DNA of 64,000 nucleotides from a virus (IMGVR_UViG_3300035670_000137:12782-76781); one strand, 5' to 3'. Positions 15,090-52,465 are shown, counted from the stretch's first letter. The notes: a model not told the origin generated them from the sequence alone. Numbers and translations: made by a program.

Positions 15090-15626
15090 TTATATACGGT
15101 TAAACACTCTATCCCAGAAGCCACGATTGATTAACTCTGTAACCTTAGCATTACTTTCATTAAGTAAGCTTTTTGTTACCCATAACTCTTTCTCTAACTC
15201 CTGTAAAGCGGTACCATCCTTGACCCTAGCAAGCTCATCTTTTAACTTATCACGTTCAGTAGTTACATCGGACCACTGCATATAGTGCTCGAAGGTGCTA
15301 AGATCCCAAGCTGCATAAGGTACCCTATCTACTAGTTCTGTCTCTTCAATACTAAGTACATTAGGTCTAGTACTGTTAAGTATATCGTTAGACCAGTGCA
15401 GGTTAATATAGTAAGATTCTAGTATGTCTATATGGTGCTTATGACATAGACGTATAATACTAAACTGTGGCAATCCGCAGCTGTTATACGTAGCTTGTAT
15501 GGCTTTTGTGTGTCGTCCGGACTCCATCTCACGTATGTGAGTCTTCCATCGGTTCTCAATGTTTTCCGATTTGCCAATGTAGTATGACCCGTCACTAAAG
15601 TCAAATCGGTATATTCCGCTAATCAT
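15090..15626 (-). CDS. GIY-YIG nuclease with C-terminal coiled coil
   Basis: SGIYRF...YYIGKS..IENRW motif. Confidence 0.75.
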   Translation of the reverse strand: MISGIYRFDFSDGSYYIGKSENIENRWKTHIREMESGRHTKAIQATYNSCGLPQFSIIRLCHKHHIDILESYYINLHWSNDILNSTRPNVLSIEETELVDRVPYAAWDLSTFEHYMQWSDVTTERDKLKDELARVKDGTALQELEKELWVTKSLLNESNAKVTELINRGFWDRVFNRI

Positions 15627-16930
15627 AATGTAAATGTATATAGAGCGTATCTAATAGCGTCAGCTATGTGGGATGCGTCGTTGTGTAATGGTTTCTCGGT
15701 TATTAGGGATTCGTTAGGATCCCACTGGTATTGGTCTAGAGCGTCTAGAACCCAGGTGCACTTGCGTAGCACTTTAAGTCGACCCTGCTGTACTACGGTT
15801 TGGCAGTATGCAATACCTTCTAGCACTTGCTTCTTAGCTTTAATTGTGGCGATATCGTATTGGTAGGCTAAATCTGCTGCAAACTGTGCAGCTGCTGAGT
15901 CGATAAATACGCTGTCTACGCCATGGTGGTCTATTATCTCTCGCAGTTTCACGGCATGTTGAGCCGTGGTTTTCTCAGCTTCTAGATAGTCGTCCACAAT
16001 ACAGAAGTAATCCTCTTCGATATTGTACGCTATTACTACGAATGCGGTTGGGTCTTTGTAGCCAGGGTCCAAGCCGCCGATGTATTCCCACTTTCCGATA
16101 GGTTGCTCGTCTAGTATATGTTCTTCGTCTAGCGAGTAGATCTGGCCTTCGTAGCTGTTGAATGAGGCCATGTACTCCTGCTCGAATTCGGCAGCAGTCA
16201 TGGTCTTTTTCGCTTCGTCCACGTCAGCCTTAGACATACGAGTATTTTCAGTCCAGTCCGCGATTAAGCTAACCCATTCAGGATACTCGTTACTATACCC
16301 ACGCGCGTGAAAGCGAGAGAACCAGTTCTTTTTACCTCGAGGTGTTGAGATAAAGATAGCCTTAGATCCGGGTTTATCTAGCGTAGGACGCAAAGATACA
16401 TTGAATGCAGCCTCACCATCAGTAGATAGAGCAGCCTCGTCAAAGAGAATAAGATTGTAAGACCTACCGACACAAGAATCGACTTGATTGATAGAACCCA
16501 TACGAATAGTAGACCCATTAGAGAGTTCAATTACTTTATCCTTTACGTTATCTCGTAGTACCTCTAAATCAAACGTCTGTATTAACTTACGCTGTAACTC
16601 GAAACTAATAGTACTCAAAGAATAGTTCGGCGACATAATTAGCACATTACAGTTAGGTATCAACATCACCATTTGTGCTATGATATTTGATATGTAAGTT
16701 TTGCCTAATCGTCGTGATAGAGCCGCACAGACGAACCTGTATTTAGGCGAGTTAATTGCGTTGATTAATGCAATTTGGGGTCTGTTCAGTTCTTCTAATA
16801 CTGACCCTCGGCCGCTAGGCGATGGCAATAGCTCTAAATACTTCTCGATTGGTAACTTGATATATCTAACACCAACATCAAAGTCTACTAAATCATCAGC
16901 ATAGACATCATCTCTGCTTATTGTAAGCAT
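15623..16930 (-). CDS. terL: Terminase large subunit
   Basis: Walker A SRRLGKT, Walker B ILFDEAA, ISTP, RNase H-like GLDPG, HIADAIRY. Confidence 0.97.
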   Translation of the reverse strand: MLTISRDDVYADDLVDFDVGVRYIKLPIEKYLELLPSPSGRGSVLEELNRPQIALINAINSPKYRFVCAALSRRLGKTYISNIIAQMVMLIPNCNVLIMSPNYSLSTISFELQRKLIQTFDLEVLRDNVKDKVIELSNGSTIRMGSINQVDSCVGRSYNLILFDEAALSTDGEAAFNVSLRPTLDKPGSKAIFISTPRGKKNWFSRFHARGYSNEYPEWVSLIADWTENTRMSKADVDEAKKTMTAAEFEQEYMASFNSYEGQIYSLDEEHILDEQPIGKWEYIGGLDPGYKDPTAFVVIAYNIEEDYFCIVDDYLEAEKTTAQHAVKLREIIDHHGVDSVFIDSAAAQFAADLAYQYDIATIKAKKQVLEGIAYCQTVVQQGRLKVLRKCTWVLDALDQYQWDPNESLITEKPLHNDASHIADAIRYALYTFTL

Positions 16931-18135
16931 TTCTCAATCCTATCAAATACCACGTCCCAAGACTGAGGGTTATTAAATACGCGTATATTAGGATACCATA
17001 CAGACGATCCAACCGAGGTATTAACTGTACCCCATCTAAAGTCAGTCTCTTTATACGGTTGAATTAGCCATCCCTCTCTCCCGAGCGCACCGACCATGTG
17101 CATACTAGACGTGTCGACACCAATAACGAGATCAAGCCCATTAATGTACTCTGCGGTTTCCTTCCACGTCCGTGGCTGTAGCCCCACAACATCCCGAGAG
17201 CCTTTAAAATCTGGTTGAAGACAATAAAGCTTCCCATACTTAGCAAACCGACTAAAGCGGCCAACAGTAGTACTACGATAAGCATCATTAGCATGAGTGG
17301 AATTACCACTAAATACAATACCAATGTGTTTACCAGGACCAAAATCGTGCGCACCATACTTACCTTCTAACCAATTATAATTACGTGTAACATCTGGAAA
17401 GCATTCTCCAAGGCTACACATAGGATAAGCTACAGTAGCATCACATTCACTAGCATCTCTAACAGTATGATATCCGGCTAACTCAAATACTTCGCCAAGA
17501 TTATTATCACACTGTACATACACGCGTTCAAATTTTTCGGATAGCCTATCAAGGTACCTAGCAAACATTAGATTATCACCAATGCCCTGCTCCACTAGAA
17601 CTACAATAGATGAACCACTAGAGACAGTATCCCAATACATGAGATTCTCTTTCATGTTCTTCATCTTGACTGGCTTAGCTTTTAAGAATCTAGCCTTATA
17701 CATTTCCCAGCCATGGGCAAAATCCTCTAAATCACCACTAGTACTGGCAATTCGTAGCCAAGCGGTACTAGAGTTCCACCAGCAATCCCAAGCTTTAGGG
17801 TCTATGCGAATAGCTTTTCTATAACAATCTAACGCTGCCACATCATCTCCATACATATAGTAAGCTAGTCCAAGATTGTTTAATACTTGAACCATTATTG
17901 CATCTGGAGTTCCTAGTAAAGAGGGAGCATTTAATGCCTCCTTATAATACTTCCACATCATAGCATCTTGACCCACAGCTCGGTAGGCTACTCCAAGATT
18001 ATTGCATACCTCCATGCAAGGATAAATATCGTAGGCTTTTTTAAGATATTGAATTGCTTTTTTAAAGTTGTTCTTTTCTAAATATATTACACCTTTATTG
18101 TAGATAGGTGTTACTTCTTCATGCGCTAAAATCAT
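16918..18135 (-). CDS. TPR-repeat glycosyltransferase (GT-B, GT9-like C-terminus)
   Basis: TPR helices (NNLGVAY, NNLGLAY), EQGIGD..MFARY, GIVFSGN, LDLVIGVDTSSMHMVGALG, FRWG..SVWYP. Confidence 0.85.
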   Translation of the reverse strand: MILAHEEVTPIYNKGVIYLEKNNFKKAIQYLKKAYDIYPCMEVCNNLGVAYRAVGQDAMMWKYYKEALNAPSLLGTPDAIMVQVLNNLGLAYYMYGDDVAALDCYRKAIRIDPKAWDCWWNSSTAWLRIASTSGDLEDFAHGWEMYKARFLKAKPVKMKNMKENLMYWDTVSSGSSIVVLVEQGIGDNLMFARYLDRLSEKFERVYVQCDNNLGEVFELAGYHTVRDASECDATVAYPMCSLGECFPDVTRNYNWLEGKYGAHDFGPGKHIGIVFSGNSTHANDAYRSTTVGRFSRFAKYGKLYCLQPDFKGSRDVVGLQPRTWKETAEYINGLDLVIGVDTSSMHMVGALGREGWLIQPYKETDFRWGTVNTSVGSSVWYPNIRVFNNPQSWDVVFDRIEKCLQ

Positions 18136-34210: not shown

Positions 34211-34439
34211 AATCTATATGAAAACATACGAATATACTCTAACATACTTAAAAGCAAATAAAGAAAGAACTAGATATATTGCTGGTTCTGAGGGTAAATA
34301 TGTTCAGATAATGCAACATACCCTTGATGTAGTGGCGTACATATATGAAAAGCAACCTATAGATGTACTAAACGATTTTGCAGATGTTAAATTAGATAAA
34401 TAATGGCCGAGTGGTGAAATTGGTATACACAAGGGACTT

Positions 34440-35099
34440 AATTAAATTTGAGCACTAAGATAGGAATATTTTATGTGAATGTTGTCAAATTCGGTGAAAG
34501 CTAAGTCGAAAGATATGCTAATACCGAGCCAAGCTTGAGGTTGTATATGGGTTATGAAACTAAGTACGCTAACTGGAAAGAATTGGTAATTGAAGCTTCA
34601 CAAACTACTAATTCAGCTACAGAAGCAGCAGCTAAGTTAGATATTAAATACGATACTTATAAGAAGTATGCAATTAAGTATGGAGTATTTAAAACTAATC
34701 AAGCTGGTATAGGGGTTTCCAAACCTAAGCAGGATAATATAGGAAAAATACCGTTAATTGATATTTTGGAAGGAAAACACCCTCAATATCAGTCCAATAA
34801 ACTAAGGCTTCGACTACTGTCGGAAAAGGTATTTATACATAGATGCAGTGGTTGTGATCTAGAACTATGGTTGGGTAATCCAATACCATTAGAGCTAGAT
34901 CATATTGATGGTAATTCATCTAATCACCTATTAGAGAATTTAAGACTACTGTGCCCTAATTGTCATGCTCTAACCTCTACATATAGAGGTAGAAATAAAC
35001 TTCAAGAAGGTGTAGAGACTAGATGGCAACCATCCAGACCGGATGAAGGTATAGTCCAGACCACGAAATGAACAGTGTAGTGAAAACTATAGTGGTATG
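34440..35099 (+). mobile_element. Group I intron (tRNA-Leu type) carrying a homing endonuclease
   Basis: Core P AAATTCGGTGAAA, Q AATACCGAGCCAAG, R GTAGAGACTAGATGG, S AAGGTATAGTCC; terminal G; insertion after U34. Confidence 0.93.
34547..35071 (+). CDS. Intron-encoded HNH homing endonuclease
   Basis: CSGC...LELDHIDGNSSNH..ENLRLLCPNCH. Confidence 0.92.
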   Translation: MGYETKYANWKELVIEASQTTNSATEAAAKLDIKYDTYKKYAIKYGVFKTNQAGIGVSKPKQDNIGKIPLIDILEGKHPQYQSNKLRLRLLSEKVFIHRCSGCDLELWLGNPIPLELDHIDGNSSNHLLENLRLLCPNCHALTSTYRGRNKLQEGVETRWQPSRPDEGIVQTTK

Positions 35100-35544
35100 A
35101 AAATCCCTCGCTTATGGCATGCCGGTTCAAGTCCGGCCTCGGCTACCAGGAGATAAAATGAAAGTACGTGTTGATCTTGATAGTTGTACGCAATTCTATA
35201 TGCAGGATGAGGAAGTACTCTCTATTCTAGATCCTGATGGTTATTACAAGACTATTGAAGTACCATTTACCCTAGTCGCTGAATATCGCAGACTAGCTGA
35301 AGAAAACGATAAGATGCAAGCAATTCTAAAGAAGATCTATTATGAAAATTTCCGAGCTGATCTCAAAACTGCAGCAGCTTAATCACGATCATTGGGCTGC
35401 AATGAAACAAGTAACTCCAATGGGTCACCAAATTCCAGAGCCTGATATTTATGTAGAGCAGTGGGATGGGGTAGAAGGATTTCAAGGTTTCACTAAAGAA
35501 ATCGACGTAATCCTAGACCTGGGCACTGGAGTACAGATTATTCC

Positions 35545-48847: not shown

Positions 48848-48849
48848 TA

Positions 48850-49156
48850 TTCGTTGATGGCAAAGTAAAAGTATTCAAGACGGGAGGGGCAGTGCCTCCC
48901 CTGGTCCACCAATAAGTAGCTATAAGAGTGACACAGTAGGGTATTAGCAGACGTCCTAGTACCTCTGGAGTAATCATAAACTTAGCTACTTATTAATGGG
49001 CCAGTAATAGATTCGATTGGGTATGAATAGCAATGCTGGAGAATCGTCAAGAAAGACGTAAAAATCACAATAATAAATGCAAACGATTCTACGTTCGCTC
49101 TAGCCGCTTGAGCTAGATAAGGTTTCGGGACTGTCCCTTATTACCAATACAGTCCC
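48850..49156 (+). ncRNA. ssrA: Permuted (two-piece) tmRNA; tag ANDSTFALAA
   Basis: Acceptor piece ends CTGGTCC-ACCA (48911); hairpin intervening segment; coding piece starts GGGCCAG (48998) giving G3:U70; tag GCAAACGATTCTACGTTCGCTCTAGCCGCTTGA at 49079-49111. Confidence 0.92.
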
Positions 49157-51862: not shown

Positions 51863-52465
51863 ATGGCGCGCAAAACCGCAAGAAGTGATGATGAGAGGCT
51901 GGATGACAATTCGCTAGAAAGAGTTATTGCGTATCTGCAAGAAAAAGGCGCGACTAAAAAAGTAGCCTGCCAAATTCTTAACATTAGTTATAATACTTCT
52001 AGACTAGATAAGCTGATTGAAACTTATAAGCAGAAGAAAGAAAACGATGCGCGTCGTCGCGCGGAAAAGCGAGGTAAGCCCGCTACAAAGGAAGAAGTAT
52101 CCTTTATCGTATCGGAATACCTTGAAGGAAATACTCTAGATAGTATTAGCAAATCGCTATACCGCGGAACCTCATTTATTAAGAACATTCTGGATGCTTA
52201 TGCAGTACCAGAGCGTAATAGCTCGCCCGATTACTTCAAACCTAGGCTAATACCTGACGAAGCAGTTCGCACAGAGTTCAAGGAAAATGAGATAGTCTAT
52301 TCAGCCAGGTATGACACTTTGGCTAAGATTATAAAAGAAGTACCCCATAAGCTTGGCAAAGTATATCAGATTTGGCTAAAGGGTGAGTGGCAGCAGTACG
52401 CATATCAGCCCGCTTGGGAACTTGCTAGTTTGCAGAAACTAAGAGAAGAAGGGATCATGTTGTGA
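51863..52465 (+). CDS. Conserved T5-like hypothetical HTH protein
   Basis: TKK.AC.ILNI.YNT.RL...ISKSLYR; GGAG RBS. Confidence 0.7.
   Translation: MARKTARSDDERLDDNSLERVIAYLQEKGATKKVACQILNISYNTSRLDKLIETYKQKKENDARRRAEKRGKPATKEEVSFIVSEYLEGNTLDSISKSLYRGTSFIKNILDAYAVPERNSSPDYFKPRLIPDEAVRTEFKENEIVYSARYDTLAKIIKEVPHKLGKVYQIWLKGEWQQYAYQPAWELASLQKLREEGIML

What the first reader, a model, noticed from the sequence alone, without database searches (positions are those of the whole stretch)
34405..35148. Phage tRNA-Leu(UAA) interrupted by a group I intron with an HNH gene reading through the ribozyme core
Seen: intron after U34 with recognisable P/Q/R/S elements. The HNH ORF starts after Q and continues through R and S to 35071, so those catalytic nucleotides are also coding. 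Known: tRNA-Leu(UAA) introns of cyanobacteria and plastids use this site and typically lack ORFs; classical phage group I introns are in protein genes. Inference: a mobile tRNA intron that could move between phage and host tRNA genes.
Basis: partly seen in the sequence, partly recalled or inferred. Interest (0 to 1): 0.8.

Follow-up and report, generated by a model that had tools for sequence, protein, structure and literature searches.

The report
Mobile self-splicing intron splitting phage tRNA-Leu
The only UUA-reading leucine tRNA gene of this T5-like phage is split in its anticodon by a well-preserved self-splicing (group I) intron, and the DNA-cutting "homing" enzyme gene inside it runs on through the RNA's catalytic core; it belongs to a large family of phage tRNA introns that I could not find described in print.

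Summary
Exons 34405-34439 and 35100-35148 join into a clean 84-nt tRNA-Leu(UAA), junction CUU^AAAA. The 660-nt insert is a group I intron of the bacterial tRNA type (IC3, "Leu.3Ug").

Evidence for the intron:
- A profile of 34 ORF-less phage relatives matches both halves (E 8e-23 and 1e-32). The halves are adjacent in the model but 461 nt apart in the window.
- Every helix, P1 to P9a, forms with standard pairs.
- 91 of 94 family-invariant intron positions are kept.

The extra 459 nt sit in the P6 loop and encode a 174-aa HNH endonuclease (34547-35071). Its last 24 codons are P6', J6/7, P7, P3', P8, J8/7, P7' and the 5' strand of P9. Shorter homologues (about 149 aa) lack this tail, and the model predicts it disordered.

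The intron family is common in uncultured phages: 71 tRNA(UAA) genes among 103 viral contigs. Relatives of the same HNH also occur antisense in P6, upstream of P4, or free-standing next to ORF-less introns and in T5-like tRNA clusters.

Splicing and homing are inferred, not shown; no RNA data were available. Overlap of an ORF with the core, and tRNA-Leu introns as such, are already known. A phage tRNA as host, and an endonuclease in this intron, are what look new. This scan has already met the family on other DNA.

The parts
34405..34439 (+). tRNA-Leu(UAA) exon 1: acceptor 5' strand, D arm, anticodon-stem 5' strand, C32 U33 U34
   Evidence: ARAGORN with introns allowed; joined exons fold as tRNA-Leu(taa); pairs listed
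34440..35099 (+). Group I intron, 660 nt, IC3-like, inserted between U34 and A35 (CUU^AAAA); last base G35099 is the omega G
   Evidence: same junction in 71 viral-contig genes
34437..34452 (+). P1: C34437-G34452, U34438-A34451, U34439-G34450 (the U-1/G wobble at the 5' splice site), A34440-U34449
   Evidence: pairs invariant or G/A-U in the family
34453..34477 (+). P2 hairpin with a GGAA loop
   Evidence: 9 of 10 P2 pairs covary in the family
34481..34486 (+). P3 5' strand (GUUGUC), pairs with 35025-35030
   Evidence: 4 of 6 P3 pairs covary in the family, and the window uses GU/AC where most relatives have CC/GG
34490..34528 (+). P4 (34490-34496 with 34522-34528) and P5 (34499-34501 with 34517-34519), with a P5 extension. 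3'-strand coordinates are corrected by +7 after reading.
   Evidence: Rfam alignment
34534..34540 (+). P6 5' strand CUUGAGG, pairs with 35000-35006. It contains the Shine-Dalgarno-like GAGG (34537-34540) 6 nt before the ATG.
   Evidence: sequence; P6 position from the family alignment
34541..34999 (+). Insertion in the P6 loop relative to ORF-less relatives, which have a GAAA-type loop there
   Evidence: nhmmer model positions 130 and 133 are 461 nt apart in the window; alignment A2
34547..35071 (+). HNH endonuclease ORF, 174 aa plus stop: N-terminal helical domain, HNH domain (residues about 70-150), and a 24-residue tail translated from the ribozyme core
   Evidence: (PHROG HNH families, E 2e-29)
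35000..35006 (+). P6 3' strand (inside the ORF)
35015..35021 (+). P7 5' strand (inside the ORF; A35016 bulged), pairs with 35052-35057
   Evidence: the pair A35021-U35052 covaries A-U/U-A 19:15 in the family
35025..35030 (+). P3 3' strand GGCAAC (inside the ORF)
35031..35045 (+). P8 hairpin, a short form (inside the ORF)
   Evidence: a similar short P8 in L062
35052..35057 (+). P7 3' strand (inside the ORF)
35060..35096 (+). P9 (35060-35064 with 35092-35096) enclosing the ORF stop codon (35069-35071) and the P9a hairpin 35077-35090 with a GAAA loop
   Evidence: covariation C-G/U-A in P9 and P9a
35100..35148 (+). tRNA-Leu(UAA) exon 2: A35 A36 A37 A38, anticodon-stem 3' strand, long variable arm, T arm, acceptor 3' strand, ACCA

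Best explanation
[quoted passage not shown] An HNH homing-endonuclease gene has been inserted into the intron's P6 loop.

Splicing (inferred). The precursor is transcribed within the + strand tRNA array. The ribozyme folds into P1-P9 and removes itself by the usual two guanosine-dependent transesterifications, at the U34439-G34450 wobble and after G35099. This yields the phage's only UUA/UUG-reading tRNA.

Homing (inferred). The HNH protein, made from unspliced or excised intron RNA, cuts or nicks intron-less tRNA-Leu(UAA) alleles of co-infecting relatives. Repair then copies the intron, or the whole tRNA segment, into them.

The overlap. The gene has no stop of its own before the core. Translation therefore runs on through P6', P7, P3', P8 and P7' to a TGA in P9, adding a 24-residue tail that is probably without function.

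Interplay (inferred). The Shine-Dalgarno-like GAGG lies in the 5' strand of P6, and the last 72 nt of the ORF are the core. Folding of the ribozyme and translation of the endonuclease should therefore exclude each other. That would keep endonuclease output low and protect splicing.

Shown: anatomy, homology, covariation in the family, intact core. Inferred: splicing, cleavage target, homing, and the interplay of translation and folding.
For: The tRNA: joined exons give a canonical tRNA-Leu(taa). No other UAA-anticodon tRNA is among the window's 24 tRNAs. TTA is 25% of Leu codons in 11 long ORFs, second after CTA, which the neighbouring tRNA-Leu(UAG) reads.

The ribozyme: the family structure on 34 ORF-less relatives has 98.6% of cells paired and 44 pairs with changes on both sides. 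0 of 500 shuffles reach this, and slid controls pair at 31-42%. The window forms every helix with standard pairs. It keeps 91 of 94 invariant intron positions, and 39 of 40 inside the overlap. Both halves match the family profile at E 8e-23 and 1e-32.

The endonuclease: PHROG HNH families at E 2e-29. Invariant Cys/His/Asn positions across 23 homologues. The HNH domain is modelled at pLDDT 93-95.

The tail: 18 protein clusters at 65-74% identity keep the same tail, LQEGVETxRQxSRxDExIVQTT, while about 149-aa homologues end at TYRGKNK. The tail has pLDDT 48-56.

Link to tRNA genes: relatives of this HNH lie in tRNA-Leu(UAA) introns in the sense orientation (L110, LR756511), antisense (L136, L142, L145, L154, L164, L165, L188) or upstream of P4 (L182, L364-L374). 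Others are free-standing beside ORF-less intron genes (L185, L187), or sit in the tRNA clusters of T5-like and T4-like phages. 52 of 80 metagenome loci have a tRNA within 800 nt.
Against: No RNA evidence: no RNA run holds the stretch, so neither splicing nor the junction is observed.

Rfam's own model is below its gathering score (37.2 against 50).

Pfam HNH is just below its cut-off (20.1 against 21.4).

No intron-less allele of a close relative of this phage was found, so sporadic distribution within the lineage is not shown.

A ribosome reading through the core could impair splicing.

The Shine-Dalgarno/P6 arrangement is not obvious in L110.
Confidence: 0.78

Rival explanations
1. The intron splices, but the HNH enzyme is not aimed at the intron insertion site. 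It would be a tRNA-cluster endonuclease of the T5 F-Tfl / T4 SegB kind that uses the intron only as a harmless landing place. It would drive inheritance of the surrounding tRNA segment, or exclusion of a competitor's segment, by cutting some other conserved tRNA-gene sequence.
For: About 40% identical homologues are free-standing inside tRNA clusters of T5-like phage S124 (between tRNA-Ala and tRNA-Leu(UAG)) and of T4-like phage PEi26. 52 of 80 metagenome homologues have an uninterrupted tRNA within 800 nt. SegB recognises a conserved tRNA T-loop motif and drags the tRNA region along (PMC2330249).
Against: The same HNH family is found again and again with this one intron and this one tRNA, in three positions and two orientations, and also right next to ORF-less copies. 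That is what 'collaborative homing' on the intron insertion site predicts (PMC3984707).
Confidence: 0.25
2. The gene is a dead tRNA. Insertion of the HNH gene and translation through the core have disabled the ribozyme, so no mature tRNA-Leu(UAA) is made.
For: Splicing is untested. The ORF overlaps 72 nt of the core. Rfam scores only the 5' half.
Against: All helices are intact, and 91 of 94 invariant positions are kept, including 39 of 40 in the overlap. Exons are perfect. 18 diverged protein clusters keep the same core-encoded tail, so the core is conserved alongside the ORF. TTA is a major codon in this phage.
Confidence: 0.07
3. The 24-residue tail is a working part of the protein, for example an RNA-binding (maturase-like) or DNA-clamping extension, and is kept for that reason.
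For: The tail is present, and its stop is at nearly the same place, in all 19 close homologues.
Against: Its conservation follows the conserved ribozyme nucleotides. It is predicted unstructured (pLDDT 48-56). About 149-aa homologues do without it. Other sense-oriented copies (L110, LR756511) read the same region in another frame and stop at the UAG of GUGUAGAGACU.
Confidence: 0.05

Closest known systems
[quoted passage not shown]
   Same: Same host gene and same insertion site (CUU/AAAA). Same overall fold: P1-P9, no P5abc, no P7.1/P7.2. U-1/G wobble and omega G present.
   Different: The host is a phage. It carries an endonuclease gene, whereas all 116 bacterial introns fetched are 200-332 nt. 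Its sequence lies in a nearly phage-only clade, separated from the cyanobacterial introns by a branch with support 100.
Synechocystis tRNA-fMet intron with its intron-encoded endonuclease (Bonocora and Shub 2001, cited as ref 105 in PMC3984707)
   Same: A bacterial-type tRNA anticodon-loop group I intron that carries a homing endonuclease.
   Different: Different tRNA and insertion site. From memory, that enzyme is of the PD-(D/E)XK kind, not HNH. The host is cellular, not a phage.
Phage T4 td intron / I-TevI and other phage introns whose ORF overlaps core sequence (PMC3984707, Fig. 2b and refs 35, 36)
   Same: A phage group I intron with a homing-endonuclease ORF that extends into core sequence. 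Translation is expected to be kept down so that the ribozyme can fold.
   Different: Those lie in protein-coding genes, where exon translation matters. Here the exons are never translated, and the overlap covers almost the whole 3' core (P6' to the 5' strand of P9).
Free-standing endonucleases of phage tRNA clusters: T5 F-TflI/II/IV (HNH) and T4 SegB (GIY-YIG) (PMC2330249)
   Same: The window's phage is T5-like (portal 42% identical to T5-like Vibrio phages). Its HNH is about 40% identical to HNH genes in T5-like tRNA clusters.
   Different: Those are intergenic; here the gene sits inside an intron within a tRNA gene. I did not check identity to the characterised F-Tfl proteins themselves.
Collaborative homing: a free-standing endonuclease plus an ORF-less intron sharing one target (Zeng et al. 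2009; Bonocora and Shub 2009; summarised in PMC3984707)
   Same: For one intron family and one HNH family, the relatives show the proposed stages side by side: free-standing next to an ORF-less intron, and inside the intron.
   Different: The model was built on protein-coding genes (psbA, DNA polymerase). Nothing here has been tested at the bench.
'Enigmatic' tRNA introns of Lak megaphages (Devoto et al. 2019, PMC6784885)
   Same: Introns in phage tRNA genes. The authors state that none had been reported before.
   Different: Those were not classified as group I. This one is a clear group I ribozyme.

Membership tests
Group I intron (Rfam RF00028) | Score at or above Rfam's gathering threshold | tested here: not met
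   37.2 bits against 50, and only the 5' half is aligned. The 459-nt loop insert splits the match. Williams 2020 notes that none of the Rfam seed sequences is bacterial.
Group I intron (Rfam RF00028) | P1 with a U-G wobble at the 5' splice site, and a G as the last intron base | tested here: met
   U34439-G34450; G35099
Group I intron (Rfam RF00028) | Conserved core helices P3-P9 with the P3/P7 pseudoknot, supported by covariation | tested here: met
   Family: 98.6% paired, 44 covarying pairs, 0 of 500 shuffles. The window forms all helices.
Group I intron (Rfam RF00028) | Guanosine-dependent self-splicing | not testable with these tools
   No RNA run holds the stretch; a bench assay is needed.
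IC3 tRNA intron, setting Leu.3Ug | Insertion between anticodon-loop positions 34 and 35 of tRNA-Leu(UAA), i.e. CUU/AAAA | tested here: met
IC3 tRNA intron, setting Leu.3Ug | Compact core without P5abc or P7.1/P7.2 | tested here: met
   Only 30 nt lie between the P7 strands (P3' and a short P8). P5 is a simple hairpin. The subgroup label itself rests on the statement in Williams 2020 that the classical tRNA introns are IC3.
IC3 tRNA intron, setting Leu.3Ug | Common descent with the cyanobacterial/plastid trnL intron | tested here: inconclusive
   Alignable and clearly related, but on the other side of a branch with support 100. The tree rests on 202 columns and on pattern-selected samples.
HNH (His-Me finger) homing endonuclease | HNH motif with its zinc-binding cysteines | tested here: met
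   Invariant C100, C103, H119, N131, C136, C139 and H140 in 23 homologues. PHROG HNH families at E 2e-29. Pfam PF01844 is just under its cut-off (20.1 against 21.4).
HNH (His-Me finger) homing endonuclease | Site-specific cleavage of the allele that lacks the element | not testable with these tools
   Needs a cleavage assay on an intron-less tRNA-Leu(UAA) allele.
HNH (His-Me finger) homing endonuclease | Sporadic presence among otherwise homologous loci | tested here: met
   The same intron occurs without an ORF in 71 viral-contig genes and with the HNH in several arrangements. Not shown for close relatives of this phage.

The most novel reading that the evidence does not exclude
Phage tRNA genes hold a large, so far unpublished pool of IC3 introns. 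These hop between tRNA types (Leu, Arg, Met, Thr, Lys, a UCA-anticodon tRNA) and are repeatedly captured by one tRNA-cluster HNH family. In the window's variant, read-through of the endonuclease gene across the catalytic core would be a built-in switch. A folded ribozyme hides the ribosome-binding site and the ORF's 3' end. A translating ribosome unfolds the core. The amounts of tRNA-Leu(UUA reader) and of the endonuclease would then be reciprocally set during infection.
Probability: 0.25. Interest if true: 0.75.

Novelty: new variant of a known kind. Interest (0 to 1): 0.6.

Why it matters
Reviews state that phage group I introns sit only in protein-coding genes, despite the many phage tRNA genes (PMC3984707). 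The one report of phage tRNA introns that I found calls them enigmatic (PMC6784885). This locus and its relatives show that classical self-splicing tRNA introns are common in phages, including deposited but unannotated genomes such as Agrobacterium phage Atu_ph07.

Practical consequence: default tRNA searches miss these genes, so phage tRNA sets and codon-supply arguments are biased.

For the biology of mobile elements, the family offers a natural series of endonuclease-intron associations in untranslated host genes: free-standing, antisense, sense upstream of P4, and sense in P6 with or without read-through. In such a system the conflict between translation and ribozyme folding can be studied without exon translation. 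It also bears on how tRNA introns pass between phages and bacteria.

Tried and rejected
- Rfam at gathering thresholds found no intron in the window.
- MAFFT of the full 744-nt gene with ORF-less relatives misplaced the P5'-P4'-P6 segment (A1). I replaced it by mapping the two halves onto alignment A2. The 7 bases that step dropped shifted some coordinates, which I corrected by hand.
- I built no covariance model, because a model of this length would probably exceed the calibration limit. A profile HMM was used instead.
- The look-up of sequencing runs listed no RNA holder.
- Read laying gave only DNA contigs. The 'joints' of about 500-540 nt are other organisms' ORF-less relatives, not spliced or intron-less forms of this phage.
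I therefore could not inspect the contigs of the 18 tail-bearing homologues P0002-P0019.
- A search with the flanking phosphoesterase found no close relative of this phage, so no intron-less allele.
- A second weak Rfam group I hit at 51915-52318 lacks P3-P7 and is probably chance.
- Promoter-like and terminator-like sites around the gene are at chance level.
- PDB sequence and fold searches gave only weak McrA-type HNH matches.
- tblastn found no paralogue of the HNH elsewhere in the window.
- Ten literature searches found no paper on group I introns in phage tRNA genes. The library lacks most subscription journals.

Full report
**What is there**

The default tRNA scan finds 24 tRNAs in the window. 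It finds none with anticodon UAA and none between 34210 and 35545. With introns allowed, ARAGORN calls tRNA-Leu(taa) at 34405-35148 with a 660-nt intron after U34. Joining 34405-34439 to 35100-35148 in a script gives an 84-nt class II cloverleaf. It has a G1-U72 acceptor end, a 3-bp D stem, the anticodon loop CUUAAAA and an encoded CCA.

**Is the insert a group I intron?**

Rfam's Intron_gpI does not reach its gathering score. In a local search it aligns 34430-34586 (P1 to P6) at 37.2 bits, E 1e-7, and skips the 3' half. The better evidence comes from relatives.

- blastn against deposited phages found the two ends of the query close together in Agrobacterium phage Atu_ph07 and in a 735-kb uncultured phage. 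Both hold a tRNA-Leu(UAA) with an ORF-less intron (278 and 205 nt) at the same junction, unannotated in GenBank.
- An exact-motif scan of IMG/VR for the P4-P6 sequence gave 103 loci. ARAGORN finds a UAA-anticodon tRNA with a 196-278-nt intron at CUU^AAAA in 71 genes. The same intron also sits in tRNA-Arg(UCU), Met(CAU), Thr(UGU), Lys(UUU) and a UCA-anticodon tRNA.
- On an alignment of 34 distinct ORF-less genes, RNAalifold recovers the tRNA stems and P1, P2, P3, P4, P5, P8, P9 and P9a.
- With P6 and the pseudoknotted P7 added, 98.6% of cells are standard pairs and 44 of 76 pairs change on both sides. No shuffle out of 500 reaches any measure. Partners slid by 1-3 columns pair at only 31-42%.

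The window's two halves map onto this structure with standard pairs in every helix. It keeps 91 of the 94 intron positions that are invariant in the family. A profile HMM of the 34 genes hits 34405-34539 (model 1-130, E 7.6e-23) and 35001-35147 (model 133-288, E 1.4e-32). The window therefore equals an ORF-less family member plus about 460 nt placed exactly in the P6 loop.

**Anatomy**

Coordinates were checked.

| Element | Coordinates |
|---|---|
| P1 | 34437-34440 with 34449-34452; U34439-G34450 wobble |
| P2 | 34453-34477 |
| P3 | 34481-34486 with 35025-35030 |
| P4 | 34490-34496 with 34522-34528 |
| P5 | 34499-34501 with 34517-34519 |
| P6 | 34534-34540 with 35000-35006 |
| P7 | 35015 and 35017-35021 with 35052-35057 |
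| P8 | 35031-35045 |
| P9 | 35060-35064 with 35092-35096 |
| P9a | 35077-35090 |
| omega G | 35099 |

There is no P5abc and no P7.1/P7.2. With the insertion site, this is the 'Leu.3Ug' setting. Williams (bioRxiv 10.1101/2020.01.27.920355) lists it among four classical bacterial tRNA introns, all of subgroup IC3.

From memory only, and so a lead rather than a test: the core sequence resembles the Azoarcus tRNA-Ile ribozyme more than the Anabaena one.

**The ORF**

The ORF 34547-35071 encodes 174 aa.

- Pfam HNH is just under its cut-off (20.1 against 21.4 bits), but PHROG HNH families match at E 2e-29.
- More than 5000 homologues exist.
- Cys100, Cys103, His119, Asn131, Cys136, Cys139 and His140 are invariant in 23 aligned homologues.
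- AlphaFold models an N-terminal helical domain and an HNH domain at pLDDT 93-95.
- The closest solved folds are McrA-type HNH domains, and only weakly.
- The ATG at 34547 is the start shared with homologues (MSYETKY...). The upstream in-frame TTG at 34535 lies inside P6.

The last 24 codons (35000-35071) are P6', J6/7, P7, J7/3, P3', P8, J8/7, P7', J7/9 and the 5' strand of P9. The TGA lies in the P9 internal region.

**Is the tail functional?**

I think the tail is read-through, for four reasons.

1. Homologues fall into two length classes. About 149-155-aa proteins end at TYRGKNK. Eighteen clusters of about 172-175 aa (65-74% identical) continue with LQEGVETxRQxSRxDExIVQTT, which is the translation of the conserved core.
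2. The tail is modelled without structure, at pLDDT 48-56.
3. In two other sense-oriented copies, L110 and the 595-kb phage LR756511, the frame differs by one base. There the ORF stops at the UAG inside GUGUAGAGACU.
4. The overlapped RNA is unchanged: 39 of 40 invariant positions are kept.

The RNA therefore dictates the peptide, not the reverse. Overlap of endonuclease ORFs with core sequence is a known arrangement, and is said to demand tight control of translation (PMC3984707).

In this copy the GAGG that could serve as a ribosome-binding site is part of the 5' strand of P6. A folded ribozyme should thus hide both the start region and the 3' end of the ORF, and a translating ribosome should open the core. 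This mutual exclusion is my inference. The Shine-Dalgarno feature is not evident in L110.

**Context**

The window is part of a 76.8-kb IMG/VR contig, estimated 73% complete. It encodes terminase, portal, a protease-capsid fusion and a major tail protein. The portal is 42% identical to T5-like Vibrio, Pectobacterium and Salmonella phages.

Public DNA runs that hold the stretch are subsurface and freshwater metagenomes; none is RNA.

[quoted passage not shown] In line with this:

- About 40% identical homologues of the window's HNH are free-standing inside the tRNA clusters of T5-like phage S124 and T4-like phage PEi26.
- 52 of 80 metagenome homologues have a tRNA within 800 nt.

TTA makes up 25% and CTA 39% of Leu codons in 11 long ORFs. 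These match the phage's two tRNA-Leu genes (UAA and UAG), so the split gene is probably needed.

**How the endonuclease and the intron are associated elsewhere**

Relatives of the same HNH occur in five arrangements.

| Arrangement | Examples |
|---|---|
| In the P6 loop, sense, reading through to P9 | the window; by protein evidence P0002-P0019 |
| In the P6 loop, sense, stopping in J6/7 | L110, LR756511 |
| In the P6 loop, antisense | L136, L142, L145, L154, L164, L165, L188 and several metagenome loci |
| Upstream of P4 in the P1/P2 region, sense | L182, L364, L366, L367, L370, L374 |
| Free-standing, directly beside a tRNA-Leu(UAA) with an ORF-less intron | L185, L187 |

[quoted passage not shown] It argues that the enzyme's target is in or near this tRNA gene. 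It does not prove that.

**Relation to bacterial introns**

The exact phage motif occurs in 46 species-representative bacterial genomes. Most hits are in tRNA-Met(CAU) genes of Omnitrophota, Patescibacteria and Planctomycetota. Only two or three are tRNA-Leu(UAA).

A looser pattern anchored on GGACTT found tRNA-Leu(UAA) introns in at least 120 genomes of Cyanobacteriota, Pseudomonadota and Acidobacteriota. The 116 that could be delimited are all 200-332 nt.

A maximum-likelihood tree of 184 introns, with P6 removed and 202 columns kept, gave the following.

- The window falls in a clade of 53 rows, 51 of them phage (SH-aLRT 85). Its nearest row is L110 at 81% identity.
- 12 other phage introns group with 22 Pseudomonadota tRNA-Leu introns (SH-aLRT 94).
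- Cyanobacterial introns lie in a group of 65 across a branch with support 100.

The samples were chosen by sequence motifs and the alignment is short, so this is indicative only.

**Novelty**

- A 2014 review states that all phage introns seen to date are in protein-coding genes, despite many phage tRNA genes.
- Devoto et al. 2019 report unclassified 'enigmatic' introns in Lak megaphage tRNAs, and say none had been reported in phage tRNAs before.
- Williams 2020 surveyed bacterial genomes only.
- My ten searches of the held library found no description of group I introns in phage tRNA genes, nor of an endonuclease in a tRNA-Leu(UAA) intron.
- The library lacks most subscription journals, so this is absence in what I could search.

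Earlier notes of this scan describe the same family on other DNA: antisense HNH, HNH in the P1 loop, and ORF-less with a free-standing HNH. I had reached the same picture from my own searches before reading them. The notes gave me the leads to the Williams and Devoto papers.

**Verdict**

This is a real, well-preserved group I intron in a phage tRNA-Leu(UAA) gene, with an HNH homing-endonuclease gene in P6 that reads through the 3' core. Each ingredient is known. The combination and the host gene are new variants, and the family is large. Splicing, the cleavage target and the interplay of translation with folding remain to be tested.

Noticed in passing
window 48849-49111 (+): Permuted (two-piece type) tmRNA gene in this phage contig: Rfam RF04321 at 98.2 bits against a gathering score of 47.
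   Followed up: no
L018, L065, L088 (Arg UCU); L033, L090 (Met CAU); L035 (Thr UGU); L072, L107 (Lys UUU); L009, L057, L083 (anticodon UCA): The same IC3 intron family interrupts other tRNA genes in viral contigs, including a tRNA with the opal-reading anticodon UCA. In the tree these fall inside the mostly phage clade, which suggests hopping between tRNA types.
   Followed up: partly
e.g. L007:5025-5295, L013:10422-10693 (-), L027:4871-5147 (-): Many phage UAA-anticodon tRNAs that host the intron have no long variable arm (class I shape), so their leucine identity is not obvious.
   Followed up: no
L189-L234 (bacterial genome contigs): The same P4-P6 motif occurs in tRNA-Met(CAU) genes of Omnitrophota, Patescibacteria and Planctomycetota. 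It also occurs in about 17 loci without a tRNA call that share a conserved upstream sequence. These may be tmRNA T-loop introns of the kind mentioned by Williams 2020.
   Followed up: no
L001 (Atu_ph07, MF403008.1 about 112890-113250); L355 (LR756511.1 about 409170-409955): Deposited phage genomes hold this intron unannotated. In Atu_ph07 a 'hypothetical protein' CDS (AUZ94936.1) overlaps the 3' exon of the split tRNA-Leu. LR756511 has an HNH-bearing copy with a 700-nt intron.
   Followed up: partly
window 51915-52318 (+): A second weak Rfam group I match (21.3 bits) that lacks P3-P7; probably chance.
   Followed up: partly
window 15623-18135 (-): The terminase-like ORF 15623-16930 matches only the C-terminal part of the large-terminase profiles. 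It overlaps an upstream 405-aa ORF of unknown family. This may be a split or interrupted terminase gene.
   Followed up: no
window 34483-34534 and 35077-35105, in runs X1, X2 and X4: In the same subsurface metagenomes, a contig with an ORF-less relative of the intron has depth of about 1400, against about 26 for this phage. Contigs with intron-less tRNA-Leu(UAA) genes sharing the same anticodon stem are also present.
   Followed up: no
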